Shown here in pieces: positions 56-35,620 of a DNA stretch of 35,620 nucleotides. Where the stretch lies: the IMG/VR virus record IMGVR_UViG_3300029643_000041; one strand, written 5' to 3'. The translations under genes and the position numbers were made by a program. Under the pieces are notes generated by a model, which worked only from the letters and a program-made list of their open reading frames with translations, was not told where the DNA came from and ran no database searches. This stretch comes from a virus (taxonomy: Duplodnaviria > Heunggongvirae > Uroviricota > Caudoviricetes). The first letter of the stretch is position 1; the number at the start of each line of letters is the position of its first letter.

Positions 56-99
56 CCCATCAACCCCGCCATTTCGGTTCAAGGTTGATGGGTTTTTTG
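56..99 (+). terminator. Host-side hairpin plus T-run overlapping attL
   Basis: cccatcaacc / ggttgatggg 10-bp stem with about 17-nt loop, followed by tttttt; the 3' arm and the T-run lie in the att core. Confidence 0.45.
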
Positions 100-113
100 T
101 TGCCTGAAATTTA
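88..113. repeat. attL core, 26-bp direct repeat atgggttttttgttgcctgaaattta
   Basis: Exact copy of the sequence at 34939-34964; lies just outside ogr, where P2/186 phages carry att. Confidence 0.75.
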
Positions 114-154: not shown

Positions 155-177
155 GATGGCGACAAAATGGCGGCAGC
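155..177. repeat. Candidate Int arm-type site (P' arm), atggcgacaaaatggcggcagcg
   Basis: Near-identical to 34824-34847 (gtggcgacaaagtggcggcagcgg); the two copies would flank the core as direct repeats in a reconstituted attP. Confidence 0.4.
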
Positions 178-178
178 G

Positions 179-22202: not shown

Positions 22203-22886
22203 TTAAGGCATTCTATTCTCAAAAACATGCTTTATCGCAGTGGTAAAGCATCTATCTTTTACATTCTTTTTAAACTCATCAAAGACCATAGATCTAACAT
22301 CTTCAATTTCACATCCTGATTCAATAAGCTGAGATGCACATCCGACCAGTTCCTTTATTAATGTCATGCTTAATTCTATTGCACGTCTTCTTTCCGCCTT
22401 GACTCCTCCTGAGGACGGGTTTAAGTTAAATACTCTTAACGTAACCTCTGCCATTTTGTGTTCTTTCTCATTCAAGCCTTCTCTAATATGAACATCACCA
22501 TTTTCCAAAAAATGGAAAAAAACATCTGGATTTTGTCTATCAGCTTTAATTAAATCATCATCGTTATATTTTTGCTTATCCTTATAAAACCCACACCTTT
22601 GCGGCTCACCACATGAGCCAAACAAATTAGACCACTCGAAAGTTAAATTTTTGTAATAACTTTTCCTGTAAAAATGTTCAATATGCCTCTCAACTTTATT
22701 TTTGCCACCACTTTTATGATGCTCTATTTTTTTCTCGCAATAAGCACATAATTTACCTTGCATTTTTATTATTTCTTCCCATATTTCTTTTTTATCATTT
22801 GATGATAGGGAATTCCAATCATCCCTCCTATAGTCAAATTTATTAAGAACGGAAGGCCCTGGCATTTGCCTAGATAGATATTTCAT
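22203..22886 (-). CDS. HNH endonuclease, Septu PtuB-like retron effector component
   Basis: 227 aa; CAYCEKKIEHH...VERHIEHFYRK...CGEPQRC HNH/zinc motif; start overlaps the ATPase stop (ATGA); strongly AT-rich. Confidence 0.8.
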   Translation of the reverse strand: MKYLSRQMPGPSVLNKFDYRRDDWNSLSSNDKKEIWEEIIKMQGKLCAYCEKKIEHHKSGGKNKVERHIEHFYRKSYYKNLTFEWSNLFGSCGEPQRCGFYKDKQKYNDDDLIKADRQNPDVFFHFLENGDVHIREGLNEKEHKMAEVTLRVFNLNPSSGGVKAERRRAIELSMTLIKELVGCASQLIESGCEIEDVRSMVFDEFKKNVKDRCFTTAIKHVFENRMP

Positions 22887-24517
22887 TTTACATCCTTACT
22901 TCCAGAAAAGTGCTGATTTATCTTATTTTTGAACTCCAAAACAGATATAAGATCATCACACTCTTGAACTAAAGGATGGTCTAATCCGAAATGTTTAATA
23001 ACTTTTTCTCTTAACAAAAGAGCCTCGTCACTGCTATAACGATTAAGCTCAACCAATTTTTTATATTCTTCAAGCCAACCATTTTCTTTAGTAGAGGGTA
23101 TAGGATCAGTTCTCATTCCATATAAAAGTGCATCCTGATTACTAACACCTTTTATTTGATAGTCGGGGTGAGACACTATCAAATCATTAACACCATCTAC
23201 TTCCACTTCCTGTAGAATACGCACTGAACGAGAGCTAACAGTGGATAAAACCTGTGGGCTATGGGTAGTAATTACAAATTGAACATTTGGGAATGTAGAT
23301 GTCAAACGCTCAATAATTGTCTGTTGCCATTGCGGATGCAAATGCAAATCAATTTCATCAATTAAAACAATCCCATATCCCAATAGAGGATTAGATAAAT
23401 TTGGATTAAGTAAAATTAAACGTCGAGCCAAATCACCAACTAAAGTAAATATAGTTTTCTCACCTTGAGACAACTGTTGAATATCTAATTCAACCTCTCC
23501 TTTTTTAAGGATAATCTTATAATCATCATCACCATAAACAAGCTTAATCCACTGAAATTCAGGCAAGAACTTTAGAATGGTATTTATAACACTATCATAA
23601 AGTGATACTGCATTATTAAACTTATGTTCTCCTGATTGCAGAGATTTCATGTAGTTCAATTTTTCTTTAAGCGAAAGCTCTAAACCTTTTATAACTGTTG
23701 AATCAATATTATCAATCGCAGATAGTTGAGTTAATGTTGCTTTCAAACTCTGAATATCTGAAAATAACGCATTGATTGTCGTTTGTGACTCACTCAATTT
23801 CTCTTGTGAAGCTCTGTTATGAAGAAATACAAGCCATTGAAAAAAATCGGTAAAATCATTTCTGTCAAACTCGATTTCATCATACACATCGAATTTTGAC
23901 CATACAGTTTTAGTTTTAGCATTTTTTCTTTTCCTATCAACCCCACCGCCTATATAAGAACGCGCAATAGAATAATATGCCATCAAAGGCAAGCTTGCAT
24001 TATCAACATATTTATTCACAAGTCTATAAATACTTGCAAGTTTTTTTATCTCCAACAATTCATTATTTCTAGAATAATATGCCCCCTCTTTCGCTTTAGT
24101 AATCAAAATACTGGTATTAAAGTCCTTGAGTTTTATATTTGCATCAATTGATGCATACTCAACATCAACAGAGTTATTAACTTCATGGCTTTTAATATAA
24201 GTACCAGGCTTACTCTCCTTTTCAATATTTGATCTCAACCAACTCAAAACAATTGCTATTGCATCCAAAATAGTGCTTTTACCGAATCCGTTATCCCCGA
24301 CAAAAACAGTCAAATCATCTTCTAAAGAAATCTGTAGTTCTCTTATCCGTTTAAAATCATGTATACCTATTTTATTTAAATGAAACTTACTCTCATTTAA
24401 AGTAGATATTAGCTTTTGAAGCTCAACAGACTCCTTCAAATAATCCTCGTTTATCACATGTGATTCCAACTCTAAAAAATCAACATAGCAAGTCTCTAAA
24501 TTCATTTTATTTATCAT
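22883..24517 (-). CDS. P-loop ATPase, Septu PtuA-like retron effector component
   Basis: 544 aa; Walker A VFVGDNGFGKST, Walker B VLIDEIDLHLHP, then ITTHSP; translationally coupled to the RT upstream and the HNH downstream. Confidence 0.8.
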   Translation of the reverse strand: MINKMNLETCYVDFLELESHVINEDYLKESVELQKLISTLNESKFHLNKIGIHDFKRIRELQISLEDDLTVFVGDNGFGKSTILDAIAIVLSWLRSNIEKESKPGTYIKSHEVNNSVDVEYASIDANIKLKDFNTSILITKAKEGAYYSRNNELLEIKKLASIYRLVNKYVDNASLPLMAYYSIARSYIGGGVDRKRKNAKTKTVWSKFDVYDEIEFDRNDFTDFFQWLVFLHNRASQEKLSESQTTINALFSDIQSLKATLTQLSAIDNIDSTVIKGLELSLKEKLNYMKSLQSGEHKFNNAVSLYDSVINTILKFLPEFQWIKLVYGDDDYKIILKKGEVELDIQQLSQGEKTIFTLVGDLARRLILLNPNLSNPLLGYGIVLIDEIDLHLHPQWQQTIIERLTSTFPNVQFVITTHSPQVLSTVSSRSVRILQEVEVDGVNDLIVSHPDYQIKGVSNQDALLYGMRTDPIPSTKENGWLEEYKKLVELNRYSSDEALLLREKVIKHFGLDHPLVQECDDLISVLEFKNKINQHFSGSKDVK

Positions 24518-25452
24518 TATTTGTTTCCTTCCATCAGGAACTTAGTTATTAACTCACAACCATATTTTTTTTGTAACCTTAATAAAAAATCACCCTCCAA
24601 ATAATTTGCAAACGCAATCATCCCTTTGGTTTTATTTATTTCTTCGGAAGATAAGAGTCCCAAAGAATATTTATGAATCTTTGCAAACAGCATCCTTTTA
24701 CGATCGCGACCAATTGATAAATTGCCCTGAGGTGTAAGTGTTACACCAGTCACGTGCCGATTATGAGCCATCGATGTAAAAATTGTTTTAGATTCATTGA
24801 TTGATAGACCGGGAACATGGAGCGACAACATTTTTTTTACCACCTTAGGAACCCTGCACAATATATCCTTAATATTAGTTGAAAAAGTTATATCATCTGC
24901 ATACCTTGAATAAGTGATACCATTGTTACGGCACCAATCATCAAGACTCTTGTCAAAGTCATACATAACAAAATTACTAATAAATGGTGAGCTTGGCGCC
25001 CCTACACTTAATATCAACGTTGTACTTCTCTTTTTTCCCGGACGCCAAAAAAGCAAATTACGTAGGGTGTTCTCATCAAATGAATCCAATTTCAGCCCTG
25101 TGTTCTCAAGTTTCGAGAAAAATATATCAGGTTTAATTTTGTTAAAGAAGTTCTGAAAATCCATTTTAAGAATATAATTATTATCTTTATGCAACAATGC
25201 ATTATCTTTAATACTTTTTTTATATTCATATGCCATTGCCTTATGATGAACAGGCAGCTTTGGCTGTAGCAAAGATACTATAAATCTCTGTACGTTTTTT
25301 AGTTCCTTTGTCGGCTGAGCTATCACCCGAAAACCTGCGCCACGTTTAGGAATATAATAAACTTTATATTTTTTGGGGGCCTCATTTAAAAGTAATTGGA
25401 AAGCTAATCTATTATAATTAAACTTACTGATAATTTTAGAAGTTAGTTGCAT
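24517..25452 (-). CDS. Retron-type reverse transcriptase
   Basis: 311 aa; ILKMDFQNFF, SVGAPSSPFISNF, YSRYADDITF (YxDD box) and the retron-typical VTG triplet (HNRHVTGVTL); AGAGGGG Shine-Dalgarno before the ATG; preceded by a structured non-coding region. Confidence 0.85.
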   Translation of the reverse strand: MQLTSKIISKFNYNRLAFQLLLNEAPKKYKVYYIPKRGAGFRVIAQPTKELKNVQRFIVSLLQPKLPVHHKAMAYEYKKSIKDNALLHKDNNYILKMDFQNFFNKIKPDIFFSKLENTGLKLDSFDENTLRNLLFWRPGKKRSTTLILSVGAPSSPFISNFVMYDFDKSLDDWCRNNGITYSRYADDITFSTNIKDILCRVPKVVKKMLSLHVPGLSINESKTIFTSMAHNRHVTGVTLTPQGNLSIGRDRKRMLFAKIHKYSLGLLSSEEINKTKGMIAFANYLEGDFLLRLQKKYGCELITKFLMEGNK

Positions 25453-25700
25453 ATAACCCCTCTTAAAACCAAAGCGCCATGCAACTTTACATAGCGCTTT
25501 GACTCTTCACTAAAGACAGCGAAAGACACAGATTTCTCCTTCGCATATCTGCCCCGGGCAGGGATGCGAAGGAGAAATCTGTGTCTTTCGCAACCCTAAA
25601 CCGGACAATAAATTTAAGCCTGGCTAATCACCCGGCTGGAACCAATGTTCCTACACTAAAGAGCGTAATGATTTTAATGAACAAATAGATATAAGGCAAG
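25453..25700 (-). ncRNA. Candidate retron msr-msd non-coding RNA (limits approximate)
   Basis: Non-coding stretch directly 5' of the RT on the same strand; 28-bp perfect inverted repeat (arms 25519-25546 and 25564-25591, 17-nt loop) consistent with an msd stem; smaller hairpins at 25638-25651 and 25461-25490. Flanking a1/a2 repeats were not resolved by eye. Confidence 0.5.
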
Positions 25701-32148: not shown

Positions 32149-32370
32149 CTAATTAAGGTTTAGATTGCATTCTGAAAGCGCATCAACGGTCATGGCTGCT
32201 ATGTTGATCATCACTTTTTCGCGTTTTTTATCTTTACGCAAACGGTGACGGATAAGGCGTCCATCAGCCAACATGTCATTGATGGTATCGATGGACAGTC
32301 CTGTCAGCTCGCTATAGCGTTCAATAGTCACATGAGGCGTGGTAAGAGTGATTGAAATGTTAGGTCTCAT
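32149..32370 (-). CDS. apl: Apl/Cox-like excisionase and switch regulator
   Basis: 73 aa HTH protein, first gene of the lytic operon, divergent from cI. Confidence 0.75.
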
Positions 32371-32454: not shown

Positions 32455-32495
32455 CATCATGAAATCGTCAAGATAAAAGTTCACTTGGAGTGACC

Positions 32496-33065
32496 ATGAA
32501 TTTGGAGAAAGGCGGACGAGGCGCTATAGAGCGCATGGTAGAAGCTTATGGATTCAAAACTCGACAGGCGTTGTGCGATCATTTAGGAATCTCTAAAAGT
32601 ACACTCGCTACACGCTACATGCGTGACTCATTCCCAGCAGAATGGGTAATCCAGTGCGCCCTTGAAACGGGCACCTCGCTTAATTGGCTCACAACTGGAC
32701 ATGGTTCAAAGCAAACTTCAGGTAATACAAATACGATGGAAGTTGCTAAGTATGTATTATCTGATGGTGCCTTGCGTGAAGACGGTTTTTATATTTTTGA
32801 TAAGGGATTTCTACCCTCTACGTTTAAAAAACCTTTTGTCATCACAGATAACAATTCTGAATTTATTTGTGATAAAGAATTTGATGATATACGTGATGGT
32901 AAATGGGTAATAAGTATTGATGGCGAAATAACAATCCGCGACATTACTCGTTTACCCGGTGGAAGAATCTTCGTTGAAGGTGGAAACAGATCCTTCGAGT
33001 GCAAGATAGAAGATGTTGAAATAATTGGAAAAATTATAAGTTTAACAATTAAGTACGTTAGGTAA
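32496..33065 (+). CDS. cI: CI immunity repressor (186 CI-like)
   Basis: 189 aa from the ATG preceded by GGAG; N-terminal HTH (ERMVEAYGFKTRQALCDHLGISKSTLATRY), position upstream of int. Confidence 0.8.
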   Translation: MNLEKGGRGAIERMVEAYGFKTRQALCDHLGISKSTLATRYMRDSFPAEWVIQCALETGTSLNWLTTGHGSKQTSGNTNTMEVAKYVLSDGALREDGFYIFDKGFLPSTFKKPFVITDNNSEFICDKEFDDIRDGKWVISIDGEITIRDITRLPGGRIFVEGGNRSFECKIEDVEIIGKIISLTIKYVR

Positions 33066-33080
33066 TACCGGGAGTAAACT

Positions 33081-33272
33081 ATGCTTGGTAAGGTATTTTT
33101 TGTGGTTTTATCATGCTCTTTGTTATTAAACCCACTAACTACCTATGCTAAAAATTATCCTTGTTCTGGGAAAAAGGGAGGTGTCTCTCACTGTACCTCC
33201 GATGGAAAGTTCGTTTGCAATGATGGAACCATTAGTAAATCAAAAAAAATCTGTACTAAAAACTCGCGATAA
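33081..33272 (+). CDS. Small secreted cysteine-containing basic peptide (candidate moron)
   Basis: 63 aa; signal peptide [23 protein letters not shown], then a mature part with four Cys and many Lys; AT-rich; between cI and int. Confidence 0.5.
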
Positions 33273-33458
33273 TTTTTGCTTTTATATCTGCGCCTAATAT
33301 AACAATGAGCCGCAGGCTAACCGCAAAAGTCACATACTCACATAGCAAAAAATAGCCAACTTCATTATGGCTTCAGTGAGATGTATGGTCGCAAGATTTC
33401 ATACATTGACACTGGTTATACATACAGTAAAAATGCTCTCTATTGGAGGGCATTTTTT

Positions 33459-34490
33459 ATGGCAGTACGAAAACTCACCACAGGAAAATGGCTTTGCGAA
33501 TGTTACCCCGCCGGACGTAGTGGGCGTCGTGTGCGTAAACAATTCGCCACCAAAGGCGAAGCACTGGCTTTTGAGCGTCACACGATGGAAGAAACCGAAG
33601 CAAAGCCCTGGCTGGGCGAATCAGTAGATCGTCGAACCCTGAAAGACGTGGTTGAGCTATGGTTCAAACTACATGGTAAATCTCTGACTGCTGGGCAGCA
33701 TGTCTATGACAAATTGCTGCTGATGGTTGACGCTCTGGGCAATCCCCTTGCAACCGATCTCACATCTAAAATGTTTGCCCATTATCGAGATAAACGACTG
33801 ACAGGTGAGATCTACTTCAGCGAGAAATGGAAGAAAGGGGCCAGCCCGGTCACCATTAACCTGGAGCAAAGCTATCTAAGTAGTGTTTTTAGCGAACTAT
33901 CCCGCCTGGGCGAATGGTCGTATCCAAACCCACTGGAGAACATGCGAAAATTCACCATCGCAGAAAAAGAGATGGCATGGCTTACCCATGAGCAGATTGT
34001 TGAACTGCTGGATGATTGCAAACGTCAGGACCCAATTCTGGCACTGGTAGTCAAGATATGCTTAAGCACAGGCGCACGCTGGCGAGAAGCAATAAACCTT
34101 ACCCGCTCACAGGTGACCAAATACCGAATTACCTTTGTCAGAACGAAGGGGAAGAAAAACAGAAGCATCCCTATCAGTAAAGAGCTTTACGAAGAGATCA
34201 TGGCGCTCGATGGGTTCAATTTCTTCACAGACTGCTATTTTCAATTTTTATCCGTGATGGAAAAAACGTCTATCGTGCTCCCTCGCGGTCAACTGACACA
34301 CGTTCTGCGCCATACGTTTGCGGCGCATTTTATGATGTCGGGTGGAAATATCCTTGCTTTGCAAAAAATCCTCGGACATCACGACATAAAAATGACTATG
34401 CGTTACGCACATCTAGCACCGGATCACCTGGAAACTGCATTACGGTTTAATCCGCTGGCAACACTACCAACATCAATAGCAAGTTTTTGA
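33459..34490 (+). CDS. int: Tyrosine integrase
   Basis: Start at MAVRKLTTGKW (P2 Int begins MAIKKL); C-terminal HVLRHTFAAHFMMSGGNILALQKILGHHDIKMTMRYAHL catalytic region. The track ORF begins 26 codons upstream. Confidence 0.9.
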   Translation: MAVRKLTTGKWLCECYPAGRSGRRVRKQFATKGEALAFERHTMEETEAKPWLGESVDRRTLKDVVELWFKLHGKSLTAGQHVYDKLLLMVDALGNPLATDLTSKMFAHYRDKRLTGEIYFSEKWKKGASPVTINLEQSYLSSVFSELSRLGEWSYPNPLENMRKFTIAEKEMAWLTHEQIVELLDDCKRQDPILALVVKICLSTGARWREAINLTRSQVTKYRITFVRTKGKKNRSIPISKELYEEIMALDGFNFFTDCYFQFLSVMEKTSIVLPRGQLTHVLRHTFAAHFMMSGGNILALQKILGHHDIKMTMRYAHLAPDHLETALRFNPLATLPTSIASF

Positions 34491-34548
34491 AAATGCGTAT
34501 TTTGCCCTGTTGAGCTAATATTCTTTTTTTTCACATGGAGCACTATCA

Positions 34549-34818
34549 ATGAATAAGTTTCAGCATCAGGGAGCGGAATTGCGCAACAGAGCCAAAGAAT
34601 TGGCTTTATCCGTACTTAAAACTCACCCAGATGCCCAAAAAAACGGCAACGGCGTTAAGCAAGCTGAGGTATTTCGTCTAAGCGGCCTCGATTGGGGAGA
34701 AAAACGGAAAGCCACAAGTTCGAACCAACAATATTGGGTTGTTGCACTATTGCGTGAACTAGAAGAGGAGGGGTTAGTCGAACAGATTGAAGATAGGGGC
34801 CCATGGCGTCTAAGGTAA
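34549..34818 (+). CDS. Hypothetical protein between int and the att arm site (possible winged-helix DNA-binding protein)
   Basis: 89 aa ORF ending 5 nt before the arm-type repeat; no family assigned. Confidence 0.45.
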   Translation: MNKFQHQGAELRNRAKELALSVLKTHPDAQKNGNGVKQAEVFRLSGLDWGEKRKATSSNQQYWVVALLRELEEEGLVEQIEDRGPWRLR

Positions 34819-34823
34819 AACAA

Positions 34824-34847
34824 GTGGCGACAAAGTGGCGGCAGCGG
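34824..34847. repeat. Candidate Int arm-type site (P arm)
   Basis: gtggcgacaaagtggcggcagcgg, a near copy of 155-177. Confidence 0.4.
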
Positions 34848-34938
34848 TTGGCATTACCCCGTAATCACCACCACTGACCACCAACCCAACTTATTGTTTT
34901 TACTCTAACTTATTGTTTCCATTAACCCATTTACATAA

Positions 34939-34964
34939 ATGGGTTTTTTGTTGCCTGAAATTTA
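34939..34964. repeat. attR core, 26-bp direct repeat
   Basis: Exact copy of 88-113; lies downstream of int and is followed 5 bp later by the stop codon of a host TetR-family gene. Confidence 0.75.
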
Positions 34965-34968
34965 TCTA

Positions 34969-35535
34969 CTACCCAGCAATCCTCTCAACCATCCTCAAAA
35001 TCTCCTCGCGTGATAGCGGCTTACGGTCGGTGACAAAATGCAGCGTCATTCCCTCAATAAACGCATCAAGCGCGCGGGCGGTTCCGGGTTCAAACCATTG
35101 TTCGAGCGTTTGTTGACTGCGCTGCATCCAGTTTTGCATTACCGTTTTTAAGAGCGGTTTTCGGCTAGCCAGCGCGTAGAGCTGGTACATCAGCTCCATA
35201 TTATCCGGCGTTGCGACCTGTGAGCTGTAGATCATATCGGTGATAGCCTGGCATGCGCCTGGAGCATCACTAACATCGCTAAAAAATGCCTGATATTGCC
35301 GGGACATGATCTCAGTAAAACGGCTGAACGCCTCCAGCAACAACTCATCAATTCCTGAAAAATAGTAGGTCATCGATCCCAACGGCACCCCGGCAAGGGT
35401 AGCAATTGTGCGGTGTGTAACAGCATGTATTCCGTAAAGTTTCACCGCCTCCAGCGTGGCCTGGATAATTTTTTCTCGCCGTTGCGGATCGTTAGCGCGA
35501 CGCATGTCATTTCCTCTCTCTGCAATTGTGTACAA
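34969..35535 (-). CDS. Host TetR-family transcriptional regulator
   Basis: 188 aa; N-terminal TetR HTH ([37 protein letters not shown]); lies outside attR. Confidence 0.85.
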
Positions 35536-35620
35536 ATGTACACAGTCTTGCTAATGTTGTCTTCCCTCTTCTTATTTTGACGTGGTCTATGACCGTAAAT
35601 TCTTCACGTAATGCATTGAA

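What the first reader, a model, noticed from the sequence alone, without database searches (positions are those of the whole stretch)
34549..34818. Extra ORF between integrase and the att arm site
An 89-aa ORF fills the space between int and the P-arm repeat, where 186 and P2 normally have little coding sequence. It is preceded by a T-run and a plausible ribosome-binding region. It could be an accessory regulator or cargo gene carried at the prophage end.
Basis: inference. Interest (0 to 1): 0.4.

Follow-up and report, generated by a model that had tools for sequence, protein, structure and literature searches.

The report
Winged-helix cargo gene at prophage end
The extra 89-codon ORF is a real, conserved gene on a 353-bp cassette inserted between the integrase gene and the attachment-site arm of a P2/186-like E. 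coli prophage; it encodes a small winged-helix protein of an unnamed family found across bacterial phyla, and its function is still untested.

Summary
ORF 34549-34818 (+) lies inside a 34.85-kb P2/186-like prophage bounded by a perfect 26-bp att core repeat. It sits between int and the arm-type repeats, next to host rcdA.

It is a discrete 353-bp cassette. About two thirds of E. coli prophages with this int/att have no gene there, and int then reads into the arm. About 18% (209 genomes) carry this ORF, and a few carry other cargo at the same junction.

The gene is under strong purifying selection (dN/dS 0.05-0.14). It folds confidently as a winged helix (pLDDT 90.7). It matches no Pfam, NCBIfam, PHROG or PADLOC model.

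Homologues of 88-91 aa keep about 50% identity from Enterobacterales to Clostridia. They occur only in chromosomally integrated elements, often as the last gene before the att site, and stay intact in decayed remnants. Rare relatives fuse two copies of the domain to a HEPN domain.

It is not a Zalpha domain and is not needed for recombination.

Best reading: a lysogen-expressed moron whose product binds a broadly conserved, probably nucleic-acid, target in conflicts between mobile elements. The mechanism is inferred, not shown. This is a new member of a known kind, of moderate interest.

The parts
88..113 (.). attL copy of the 26-bp att core (ATGGGTTTTTTGTTGCCTGAAATTTA)
   Evidence: Perfect direct repeat with 34939-34964, spacing 34851 bp. 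It overlaps the T-run of the upstream host terminator.
155..178 (+). P'-arm arm-type repeats (GATGGCGACAAAATGGCGGCAGCG)
   Evidence: Read directly from the sequence. Near-identical to the repeats at 34822-34847.
33459..34490 (+). Tyrosine integrase (343 aa) with a C-terminal tail altered by the cassette
   Evidence: Pfam Int_N 2.9e-32 and Phage_integrase 4.4e-22. RefSeq coordinates from the identical E. coli D7 locus. The tail is ...PLATLPTSIASF* here and ...PLATLPSGDKVAAAVGITP* in cargo-free prophages.
34471..34823 (+). 353-bp cargo cassette (junction ambiguous by 2 bp because of an AA microhomology)
   Evidence: Alignment with a cargo-free sister prophage (FCI51) and with two prophages carrying other cargo. 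All insertions sit between the int codons ...PLATL and the arm repeat.
34493..34521 (+). Candidate sigma-70 promoter: -35 ATGCGT (34493-34498), 17-nt spacer, -10 TAATAT (34516-34521)
   Evidence: The TG of the -35 and the T, A and final T of the -10 are invariant in an alignment of 11 Enterobacterales homologue upstream regions of 68% mean identity. It falls below the threshold of the simple consensus scan, so it is an inference.
34537..34540 (+). Shine-Dalgarno GGAG, 8 nt upstream of the ATG
   Evidence: Read directly from the sequence. GGAG/GGGAG is conserved in most homologues.
34549..34818 (+). ORF89: stand-alone winged-helix protein (H1 3-25, H2 38-44, invariant loop 45-56, H3 57-73, wing strands 77-79 and 86-88)
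34822..34847 (+). P-arm arm-type repeats (AAGTGGCG at 34822 and 34833, 11 bp apart). In cargo-free prophages this DNA also encodes the int tail.
   Evidence: Invariant in all four prophage variants aligned. Shared with Klebsiella phages 4LV2017 and KP12 and with Escherichia phage vB_EcoM-813R9, whose matches begin at 34821.
34888..34918 (+). Second pair of direct repeats AACTTATTGTTT (34888-34899 and 34907-34918) in the P arm
   Evidence: Read directly from the sequence. Conserved in sister prophages. Their binding protein is not identified.
34924..34945 (+). Hairpin plus T-run: intrinsic terminator for int/ORF89 transcripts. Its 3' half and T-run lie in the att core.
   Evidence: Terminator scan: 9-bp stem followed by TTTTGTT.
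34939..34964 (.). attR copy of the 26-bp att core
34969..35505 (-). Host gene rcdA (ybjK), a TetR-family regulator. It marks the chromosomal flank.
   Evidence: RefSeq annotation of the identical locus.

Best explanation
ORF89 is the payload of a 353-bp moron cassette inserted at the junction between the int coding sequence and the P-arm Int-binding repeats of a P2/186-like prophage at the rcdA att site.

Shown: it is a real protein-coding gene under purifying selection. It is optional among sister prophages. It occupies a slot that also takes other cargo. It folds as a single winged-helix domain.

Inferred: it is transcribed in the lysogen. The transcript would come from a conserved weak promoter inside the cassette, from read-through of the cI-int lysogenic transcript, or from both, since no terminator lies between them. 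Transcription would end at the hairpin that overlaps the att core.

Inferred: the protein acts in trans. Its working surface would be the nearly invariant patch formed by the 12-residue loop that replaces the HTH turn (G46, W49, G50, A55), the start of helix 3 (S57, N59, Q60, Q61, Y62, W63) and the wing (W86, R87). The target would be something conserved across phyla, most probably a nucleic-acid feature, and not a locus-specific operator.

Three lines point to a role in conflict between mobile elements, that is, exclusion or defence that benefits the lysogen. The slot is a published minor defence hotspot. The family's neighbours elsewhere are mobile-element and defence-island genes. Rare relatives fuse the domain to nuclease-type effectors.

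The cargo and winged-helix parts are near certain. The conflict-related nucleic-acid-binding mechanism is the leading hypothesis only.
For: Cassette and slot:
- 209 of 1132 E. coli genomes with this int/att carry the ORF. About 68% of an evenly spaced sample have none. About 7% carry other genes at the same junction (BL21, 110 aa; SW070919, 240 aa with weak HEPN/Abi-like hits).
- The int-att interval of P2-like prophages is described as a minor defence hotspot holding 3% of P2 defence systems (PMC13586616).

Coding and fold:
- dN/dS is 0.05-0.14.

Family:
- More than 200 homologues of 88-91 aa, with 64% mean column identity across Enterobacterales, other Proteobacteria, Clostridia, Bacilli, Phycisphaerae and others.
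- Only 116 representatives at 50% identity in 1.84 billion proteins.

Position:
- Last gene before the att site in P2-like prophages.
- Last gene before the att site in Clostridia elements at the 3' end of guaA, where an XRE-HTH gene and ORF88 form an apparent operon.
- Next to tRNA or tmRNA genes in five further species.

Retention:
- Intact beside truncated int fragments in Enterobacter, Franconibacter and Huaxiibacter remnants.
- Intact in Ruminococcus remnants.

Neighbours: restriction-modification methylases, PD-Lambda-1, AAA ATPases, helicases, HEPN_AbiV. No fixed partner.

Fusions:
- One relative is fused to DUF6998.

Expression signals: conserved -35/-10 positions. No terminator between int and the ORF, and a terminator after it.
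Against: - There is no experimental datum on expression or function.
- No PADLOC model matches the protein.
- An 89-aa protein with no enzymatic domain and no conserved partner has no obvious way to kill or block a phage.
- Net charge in the family is near neutral (-3 to +4), so nucleic-acid binding is not assured.
- The conserved aromatic and polar patch could equally bind a protein or a small ligand, or could be purely structural.
- Survival in remnants may partly reflect a position sheltered by the neighbouring host gene.
- The family is absent from 50,697 phage isolate records and 72,556 plasmids. This is unexpected for a generally useful defence gene.
- The HEPN fusions are very rare.
Confidence: 0.4

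Rival explanations
1. It is an ordinary sequence-specific winged-helix transcription factor. It would repress or activate prophage or host genes, for example autoregulating itself or tuning neighbouring genes, with no direct role in conflicts between mobile elements.
For: Winged-helix fold with close structural matches to the IclR, MarR, ArsR and Rrf2 DNA-binding domains. TtgV shows 31% identity over 61 aligned residues. Weak PHROG hit to a 'transcriptional regulator' family (E 0.044). In many proteobacterial loci the gene precedes variable same-strand genes, as regulators of defence systems do.
Against: No HTH family model reaches its threshold. The HTH turn is replaced by a 12-residue invariant loop. 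The putative recognition surface is almost invariant across phyla while the neighbours vary completely. No shared k-mer or operator candidate occurs within 200 bp on either side in 49 dereplicated loci. The 89-residue protein has no dimerisation or effector domain.
Confidence: 0.25
2. It is a counter-defence decoy. As a free copy of the sensing domain used by HEPN-winged-helix-winged-helix effectors or similar systems, it would mask the nucleic-acid cue or poison the sensor. This would resemble poxvirus E3L Zalpha competing with ZBP1.
For: The same domain occurs in tandem behind a HEPN nuclease-type domain. The best structural matches include viral and host Zalpha domains. The gene is carried only by mobile elements.
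Against: The fused effectors are very rare compared with the stand-alone form. The gene sits in the lysogenic module, not the early lytic module. It is retained in immobile remnants, where counter-defence gives no benefit. It is absent from phage isolates and plasmids.
Confidence: 0.12
3. It is an accessory factor for site-specific recombination, such as an excisionase-like or arm-binding protein. Its position beside int and the att arm would then be functional.
For: It lies directly between int and the arm-type sites. Homologues lie next to att sites in at least three unrelated integration systems. Lambda Xis is also a small winged helix (general knowledge).
Against: About two thirds of prophages with the same int and the same att arms lack it, so it is dispensable. 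An Apl/Cox-position gene is present elsewhere in the prophage (32149-32370). The Clostridia elements already have an Xis-sized gene next to int. The protein surface is invariant although the att sequences differ. It persists where int is truncated.
Confidence: 0.05
4. It is a selectively neutral passenger or a decaying ORF with no present function.
For: It has no annotation, no partner and no known phenotype. Its position at the very edge of elements could shelter it from deletions.
Against: dN/dS is 0.05-0.14 with saturated dS. Length is constant at 88-91 aa. Fifteen columns are invariant across phyla. The model has high confidence.
Confidence: 0.03

Closest known systems
Lysogenic-conversion 'moron' genes of P2-like phages (P2 old, tin, fun/Z; Vibrio phage K139 glo) and the int-att minor defence hotspot of P2-like prophages (PMC13586616)
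   Same: An optional gene present in only some sister prophages. It is inserted at a fixed junction that also accepts other cargo. It sits in or downstream of the lysogenic module, with a candidate promoter and a terminator.
   Different: No sequence or fold relation to Old, Tin, Fun or Glo. No exclusion phenotype is known. It is far smaller than known defence proteins and matches no PADLOC model.
Zalpha (Z-DNA/Z-RNA-binding) domains of ADAR1, ZBP1, PKZ, E3L and ORF112
   Different: No profile similarity (hhalign probability 0.2%). The Z-DNA contact residues N173 and Y177 align with the invariant V65 and the nearly invariant R69. A 12-residue loop replaces the short turn before helix 3.
N-terminal winged-helix DNA-binding domains of IclR-, MarR-, ArsR- and Rrf2-type regulators (for example TtgV, PDB 2xrn)
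   Different: No family HMM match, no effector or dimerisation domain, an atypical HTH turn, and no operator found.
HEPN (DUF4145-type) conflict-system proteins with fused nucleic-acid-binding modules (Anantharaman et al. 2013, PMC3710099)
   Same: Rare relatives carry two copies of the ORF89-type domain behind a DUF4145-like HEPN domain.
   Different: The window protein has no HEPN or any other effector domain, and no HEPN gene lies next to it.
Lambda Xis-type winged-helix excisionases
   Same: A small winged-helix protein encoded next to int and att.
   Different: It is dispensable for prophages that use the same int and att. It has no excisionase family match. Its surface is conserved across elements with unrelated att sites.

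Membership tests
Winged-helix fold (structural class) | H1-S1-H2-H3-S2-wing-S3 topology with significant structural matches to solved winged helices | tested here: met
Zalpha domain | Sequence-profile relatedness to Zalpha | tested here: not met
   hhalign of the family alignment against ADAR1 Zalpha gives probability 0.2% with only 12 aligned columns. The Zalpha sequence used was verified as identical to the PDB chains.
Zalpha domain | Z-DNA contact residues Asn173 and Tyr177 on helix 3, and Trp195 on the wing | tested here: not met
   In the hhalign register, L68 aligns with L176 and R69 with Y177. N173 therefore falls on the invariant V65. Only a wing Trp (W86) has a counterpart.
Zalpha domain | Binding to left-handed Z-DNA or Z-RNA | not testable with these tools
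   Needs a CD or EMSA assay with (CG)n substrates.
IclR/MarR/ArsR-type HTH transcription factors | Match to a family HMM above its threshold | tested here: not met
   No Pfam, NCBIfam or PHROG model reaches its cut-off. The best Pfam hits are DUF6540 (15 bits against a cut-off of 27) and BLACT_WH (14.6 against 22.8).
IclR/MarR/ArsR-type HTH transcription factors | A cognate operator near the regulated or own gene | tested here: inconclusive
   No k-mer of 7-10 nt beyond generic AT-rich words is shared within 200 bp upstream or downstream in 49 dereplicated loci. Gapped dyads and distant targets were not tested.
Prophage moron (Hendrix/Juhala sense) | Present in some and absent from other closely related prophages, with sharp boundaries | tested here: met
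   209 of 1132 genomes carry it. The 353-bp insertion has a defined junction.
Prophage moron (Hendrix/Juhala sense) | Own promoter and terminator | tested here: inconclusive
   A terminator-like hairpin follows the ORF. The candidate promoter is supported only by conservation of the -35 TG and the -10 TAnnnT and is below the scan threshold.
Prophage moron (Hendrix/Juhala sense) | Expression from the repressed prophage | not testable with these tools
   Needs RNA-seq or 5'-RACE of a lysogen.
Known anti-phage defence systems (PADLOC-DB 2.0) | Match to a defence-protein model | tested here: not met
   0 families at E <= 1.
Excisionase / recombination directionality factor | Required partner of the cognate integrase at its att site | tested here: not met
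   Most prophages with the same int and the same arm repeats lack the gene. The gene persists beside truncated int.

The most novel reading that the evidence does not exclude
ORF89 founds an unnamed family of about 89-aa winged-helix proteins, spread across phyla, that mobile elements place at the int-att edge. On its own it would act as a new single-gene immunity or exclusion factor, by recognising a universal nucleic-acid feature of invading DNA or RNA. The same module would serve as the sensor of rare HEPN-wH-wH effectors.
Probability: 0.25. Interest if true: 0.65.

Novelty: new member of a known kind. Interest (0 to 1): 0.4.

Why it matters
If the inferred role is right, this would be one of the smallest prophage-borne conflict factors known. 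It would also give a handle on a winged-helix module that keeps about 50% identity from E. coli to Clostridia, which implies a universal target. The locus also gives a base-pair-resolution example of how the int-att junction of P2-like phages takes up cargo. The cassettes enter inside the last codons of int, so each cargo gives the integrase a different C-terminal tail. CFT073 and many clinical and animal E. coli carry the gene, so experiments are easy to set up. If the protein turns out to be an ordinary regulator or to have no phenotype, the finding is routine prophage variation.

Tried and rejected
- Family searches: Pfam, NCBIfam, PHROGs and PADLOC gave nothing above threshold for ORF89.
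- PDB: a profile search found no significant sequence relative.
- Viral structures: BFVD had no hit with E <= 0.001.
- The afdb50 library was unavailable.
- Rfam: no RNA family in 33000-35620, so the region is not an RNA gene.
- Phage isolates: megablast matched only from the arm onward, and tblastn found nothing.
- Plasmids: tblastn found nothing.
- Toxin-antitoxin idea: raised by the XRE-HTH gene 4 bp upstream in Clostridia. Rejected because the E. coli gene has no such partner and because remnants keep ORF88 beside a truncated XRE gene.
- Conserved partner: clustering of the three genes on each side found none. Only guaA, integrases, the XRE gene and an Xis-sized gene recur, and all are lineage-specific.
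- Conserved operator: not found.
- Base composition: GC of the cassette (about 0.43-0.47) does not differ from int, so it gives no evidence of foreign origin.
- Literature: the RefSeq accession WP_001032044 appears in no searchable paper.
- Opposite-strand ORFs (34623-34823 and 34655-34804): they have no support, and conservation follows the + frame.

Full report
1. THE OBSERVATION

The ORF listing gives an ATG-to-TAA frame of 89 codons at 34549-34818 on the + strand. Eight T residues (34524-34531) and a GGAG (34537-34540, 8 nt before the ATG) precede it.

The surroundings identify the right end of a P2/186-like prophage. The order of features is:
- a CI-type repressor, 32490-33065
- a 63-aa secreted ORF, 33081-33272
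- a tyrosine integrase, 33459-34490
- the ORF itself
- direct repeats AAGTGGCG x2, 34822-34840
- a second repeat pair AACTTATTGTTT x2, 34888-34918
- a hairpin with a T-run, 34924-34945
- the host gene rcdA on the minus strand

A perfect 26-bp direct repeat at 88-113 and 34939-34964 is the att core. It delimits a 34.85-kb element. The left arm carries the matching repeats GATGGCGACAAAATGGCGGCAGCG at 155-178.

2. IT IS A DISCRETE, OPTIONAL CASSETTE

The 340 bp around the ORF occur once, on the chromosome, in 209 of 5426 complete E. coli genomes. They are always annotated 'hypothetical protein', WP_001032044.1 or the 87%-identical WP_001004343.1, and CFT073 is among these genomes.

A longer query spanning the end of int, the ORF and the arm matches 1132 genomes. 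In an evenly spaced sample of 60 of them:
- about 18% carry the ORF
- about 68% have int followed directly by the arm (span about 500 bp instead of 853-861)
- about 7% carry a different gene there
- the rest match only partially

The alignment and translations show why the boundary is so sharp. In cargo-free prophages the int reading frame runs into the arm repeats and ends ...PLATLPSGDKVAAAVGITP*. All three cargo types are inserted immediately after the ...PLATL codons. These are ORF89, a 110-aa ORF in BL21, and a 240-aa ORF in strain SW070919 with weak HEPN/Abi-like hits.

In the window, int acquires the new tail ...LPTSIASF*. In SW070919 the cargo ORF itself reads into the arm and takes over the old tail.

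The inserted segment in the window is 353 bp (34471-34823, junction ambiguous by 2 bp).

Phage records that share this att (Klebsiella phages 4LV2017 and KP12, Escherichia phage vB_EcoM-813R9) match only from 34821 onward and have no gene in this interval.

A 2026 survey of P2-like prophages lists the interval between int and att as a minor defence hotspot holding 3% of P2 defence systems. It remarks that cargo in that position is atypical (PMC13586616).

3. IT CODES FOR A CONSERVED PROTEIN

Against eleven Enterobacterales homologues (65-76% amino-acid identity), dN is 0.16-0.23 while dS is saturated. Where the ratio can be computed it is 0.05-0.14.

A search of 5.8 billion proteins returns more than 200 homologues, nearly all of 88-91 aa. 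They keep about 50% identity even in Clostridia, Ruminococcus and Eubacterium.

In a 34-sequence alignment the mean column identity is 64% and fifteen columns are invariant. They concentrate in F42-R43-x-C-G46-L-D-W49-G50, A55-T-S-S-N-Q60-Q61-Y-W63-V-V65-A66, and W86-R87.

The family is compact and sparse. There are 116 representatives at 50% identity among 1.84 billion proteins. It occurs in 92 of about 185,000 species genomes, scattered over Gamma-, Beta- and Zetaproteobacteria, Campylobacterota, Phycisphaerae, Clostridia, Bacilli, Armatimonadota and others.

No Pfam, NCBIfam, PHROG or PADLOC model matches.

4. FOLD

With the family alignment, AlphaFold2 gives pLDDT 90.7 and pTM 0.81, with a winged-helix topology. 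A long helix 1 (residues 3-25) is followed by a short strand and helix 2 (38-44). A 12-residue loop (45-56) takes the place of the usual HTH turn. Helix 3 (57-73) and a two-stranded wing (77-79, 86-88) complete the domain.

The Zalpha lead was tested and fails. The ADAR1 Zalpha sequence was first verified against the PDB. hhalign then gives probability 0.2%. In its register the Z-DNA contact residues N173 and Y177 fall on the invariant V65 and the nearly invariant R69.

5. WHERE THE FAMILY LIVES

Three patterns recur.

(a) Edge of integrated elements.
- In Enterobacterales the gene is the last gene of 36-38-kb P2-like prophages.
- In Clostridia the order is int(-), an Xis-sized gene(-), a 175-aa XRE-HTH gene(+), ORF88(+) 4 bp later, then the 3' end of guaA(-). 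guaA is the downstream neighbour in nine species-level loci.
- In five other species the gene lies 100-750 bp from a tRNA or tmRNA gene. One of these follows a C5-methylase/NgoFVII-like restriction pair.

(b) Survival in remnants.
- In Enterobacter, Franconibacter and Huaxiibacter the gene is intact beside int fragments of 86-147 aa. It lies in a small islet bounded by the same att core between ybjL and ars/rcdA.
- In Ruminococcus it is intact beside a 60-aa stump of the XRE gene, and it occurs in hundreds of assemblies.

(c) No fixed partner.
- Elsewhere the neighbours vary and are typical of islands: methylases, PD-Lambda-1, AAA ATPases, helicases, HEPN_AbiV, DUF4062, transposases.
- Clustering finds no conserved partner.

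The family is absent from 50,697 phage records and 72,556 plasmids.

6. DOMAIN FUSIONS

DUF4145 is a HEPN family tied to restriction and abortive-infection contexts (PMC3710099).

One other relative is fused to DUF6998. These fusions are rare. They still show that the module can be coupled to nuclease-type effectors of conflict systems.

7. EXPRESSION SIGNALS

No terminator is predicted between int and the ORF. The hairpin at 34924-34945 with its T-run, which overlaps the att core, is the only + strand terminator nearby. Read-through from the lysogenic cI-int transcript is therefore plausible.

An alignment of eleven Enterobacterales upstream regions (68% mean identity) keeps the following invariant: TG at 34494-34495, and T, A and T at 34516, 34517 and 34521. 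This fits a -35 ATGCGT, a 17-nt spacer and a -10 TAATAT. Such a promoter would also explain expression in remnants that lack int. It is an inference, because the element is too weak for the consensus scan.

8. INTERPRETATION

Shown:
- a real, optional, precisely bounded cargo gene
- a winged-helix product
- a conserved family confined to integrated mobile elements, with a bias for the int-att edge

Inferred:
- expression in the lysogen
- action in trans through the invariant loop, helix-3 and wing surface on a target that is conserved across phyla

A locus-specific operator fits poorly. The surface hardly varies while the neighbourhoods vary completely. No shared motif flanks the gene in 49 dereplicated loci. 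The HTH turn is atypical.

A role in recombination is unlikely. Most prophages with the same int and the same arms lack the gene, and it outlives int.

The slot, the neighbours, the remnant retention and the HEPN fusions together point to a role in conflict between mobile elements that benefits the lysogen. I rank that first, at about 0.4. A plain regulator comes second (0.25), a counter-defence decoy third (0.12) and a recombination factor fourth (0.05).

Caveats:
- Net charge is near neutral.
- No effector is present.
- No phage isolate or plasmid carries the gene.
- The sheltered edge position could inflate the apparent retention.

9. VERDICT

This is a new, unnamed member of known kinds: a prophage moron and a winged-helix protein. 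It sits in a slot already reported as a minor hotspot.

Three features lift it above routine: the degree of cross-phylum conservation, the recurrent att-edge position in unrelated elements, and the HEPN-fused relatives. Interest is 0.4.

Noticed in passing
window 22203-25664 (- strand): The classic GpA-GpQ hotspot of this prophage carries a type I-A retron. It comprises a reverse transcriptase (24517-25452; PADLOC RT_I-A, 4.9e-131), an ATPase (22883-24517; PtuA/ATPase_I-A, 1e-193) and an HNH protein (22203-22886; PtuB/HNH_I-A, 1.5e-117). An msr-like RNA lies at 25600-25664 (Rfam RF00170, 45.9 bits, below the gathering score of 52, E 1.4e-6). An adjacent STnc400-like element at 25461-25598 is probably the msd.
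   Followed up: partly
window 33081-33272 (+): A 63-aa ORF with a signal-peptide-like N-terminus lies between cI and int (NCBIfam PRK10040/YdcA family, 4e-34; phrog_6000). In sister prophages the same cI-int slot holds PD-Lambda-1 (558 aa; L030 and phage vB_EcoM-813R9), a PDC-M18A/B pair (strain LD22-1, L114) or a 323-aa ORF (CFT073). It is therefore a second cargo slot in the lysogeny module.
   Followed up: partly
window 34455-34490 and 34822-34880; L026, L027, L028: In cargo-free prophages the last 14 codons of int are encoded by the arm-type Int-binding repeats themselves (...LPSGDKVAAAVGITP*). Each cargo insertion gives Int a different C-terminal tail. In strain SW070919 the cargo ORF reads into the arm and inherits the old tail. 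The effect on Int activity is unknown.
   Followed up: partly
L027 1985-2317 (E. coli BL21) and L028 1902-2624 (strain SW070919): Alternative cargo sits at the same int-arm junction. One is a 110-aa ORF with no family match. The other is a 240-aa ORF with weak HEPN_RiboL-PSP (E 0.004) and Abi_2 (E 0.04) hits. Neither matches PADLOC.
   Followed up: partly
L014 3090-5411 (Enterobacter cloacae complex): A roughly 2.3-kb prophage remnant lies between ybjL and arsRBC/rcdA and is bounded by a 24-bp copy of the att core. It keeps a GIY-YIG protein (199 aa), a fragment of the int C-terminus, an intact ORF89 homologue and the arm region.
   Followed up: partly
P0122, P0123, P0125, P0130 (metagenomic proteins); L110: Rare proteins combine an N-terminal HEPN (DUF4145-like) domain, a disordered Pro/Lys-rich linker and two tandem ORF89-type winged helices. 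P0123 also has a GreA/GreB C-terminal-like segment (Pfam, 2.5e-9). These are candidate single-protein conflict effectors.
   Followed up: partly
window 34969-35535: The mechanical ORF list extends rcdA to a TTG at 35535 (188 aa). RefSeq starts it at 35505 (178 aa) in identical loci. This is only a start-codon call difference.
   Followed up: no
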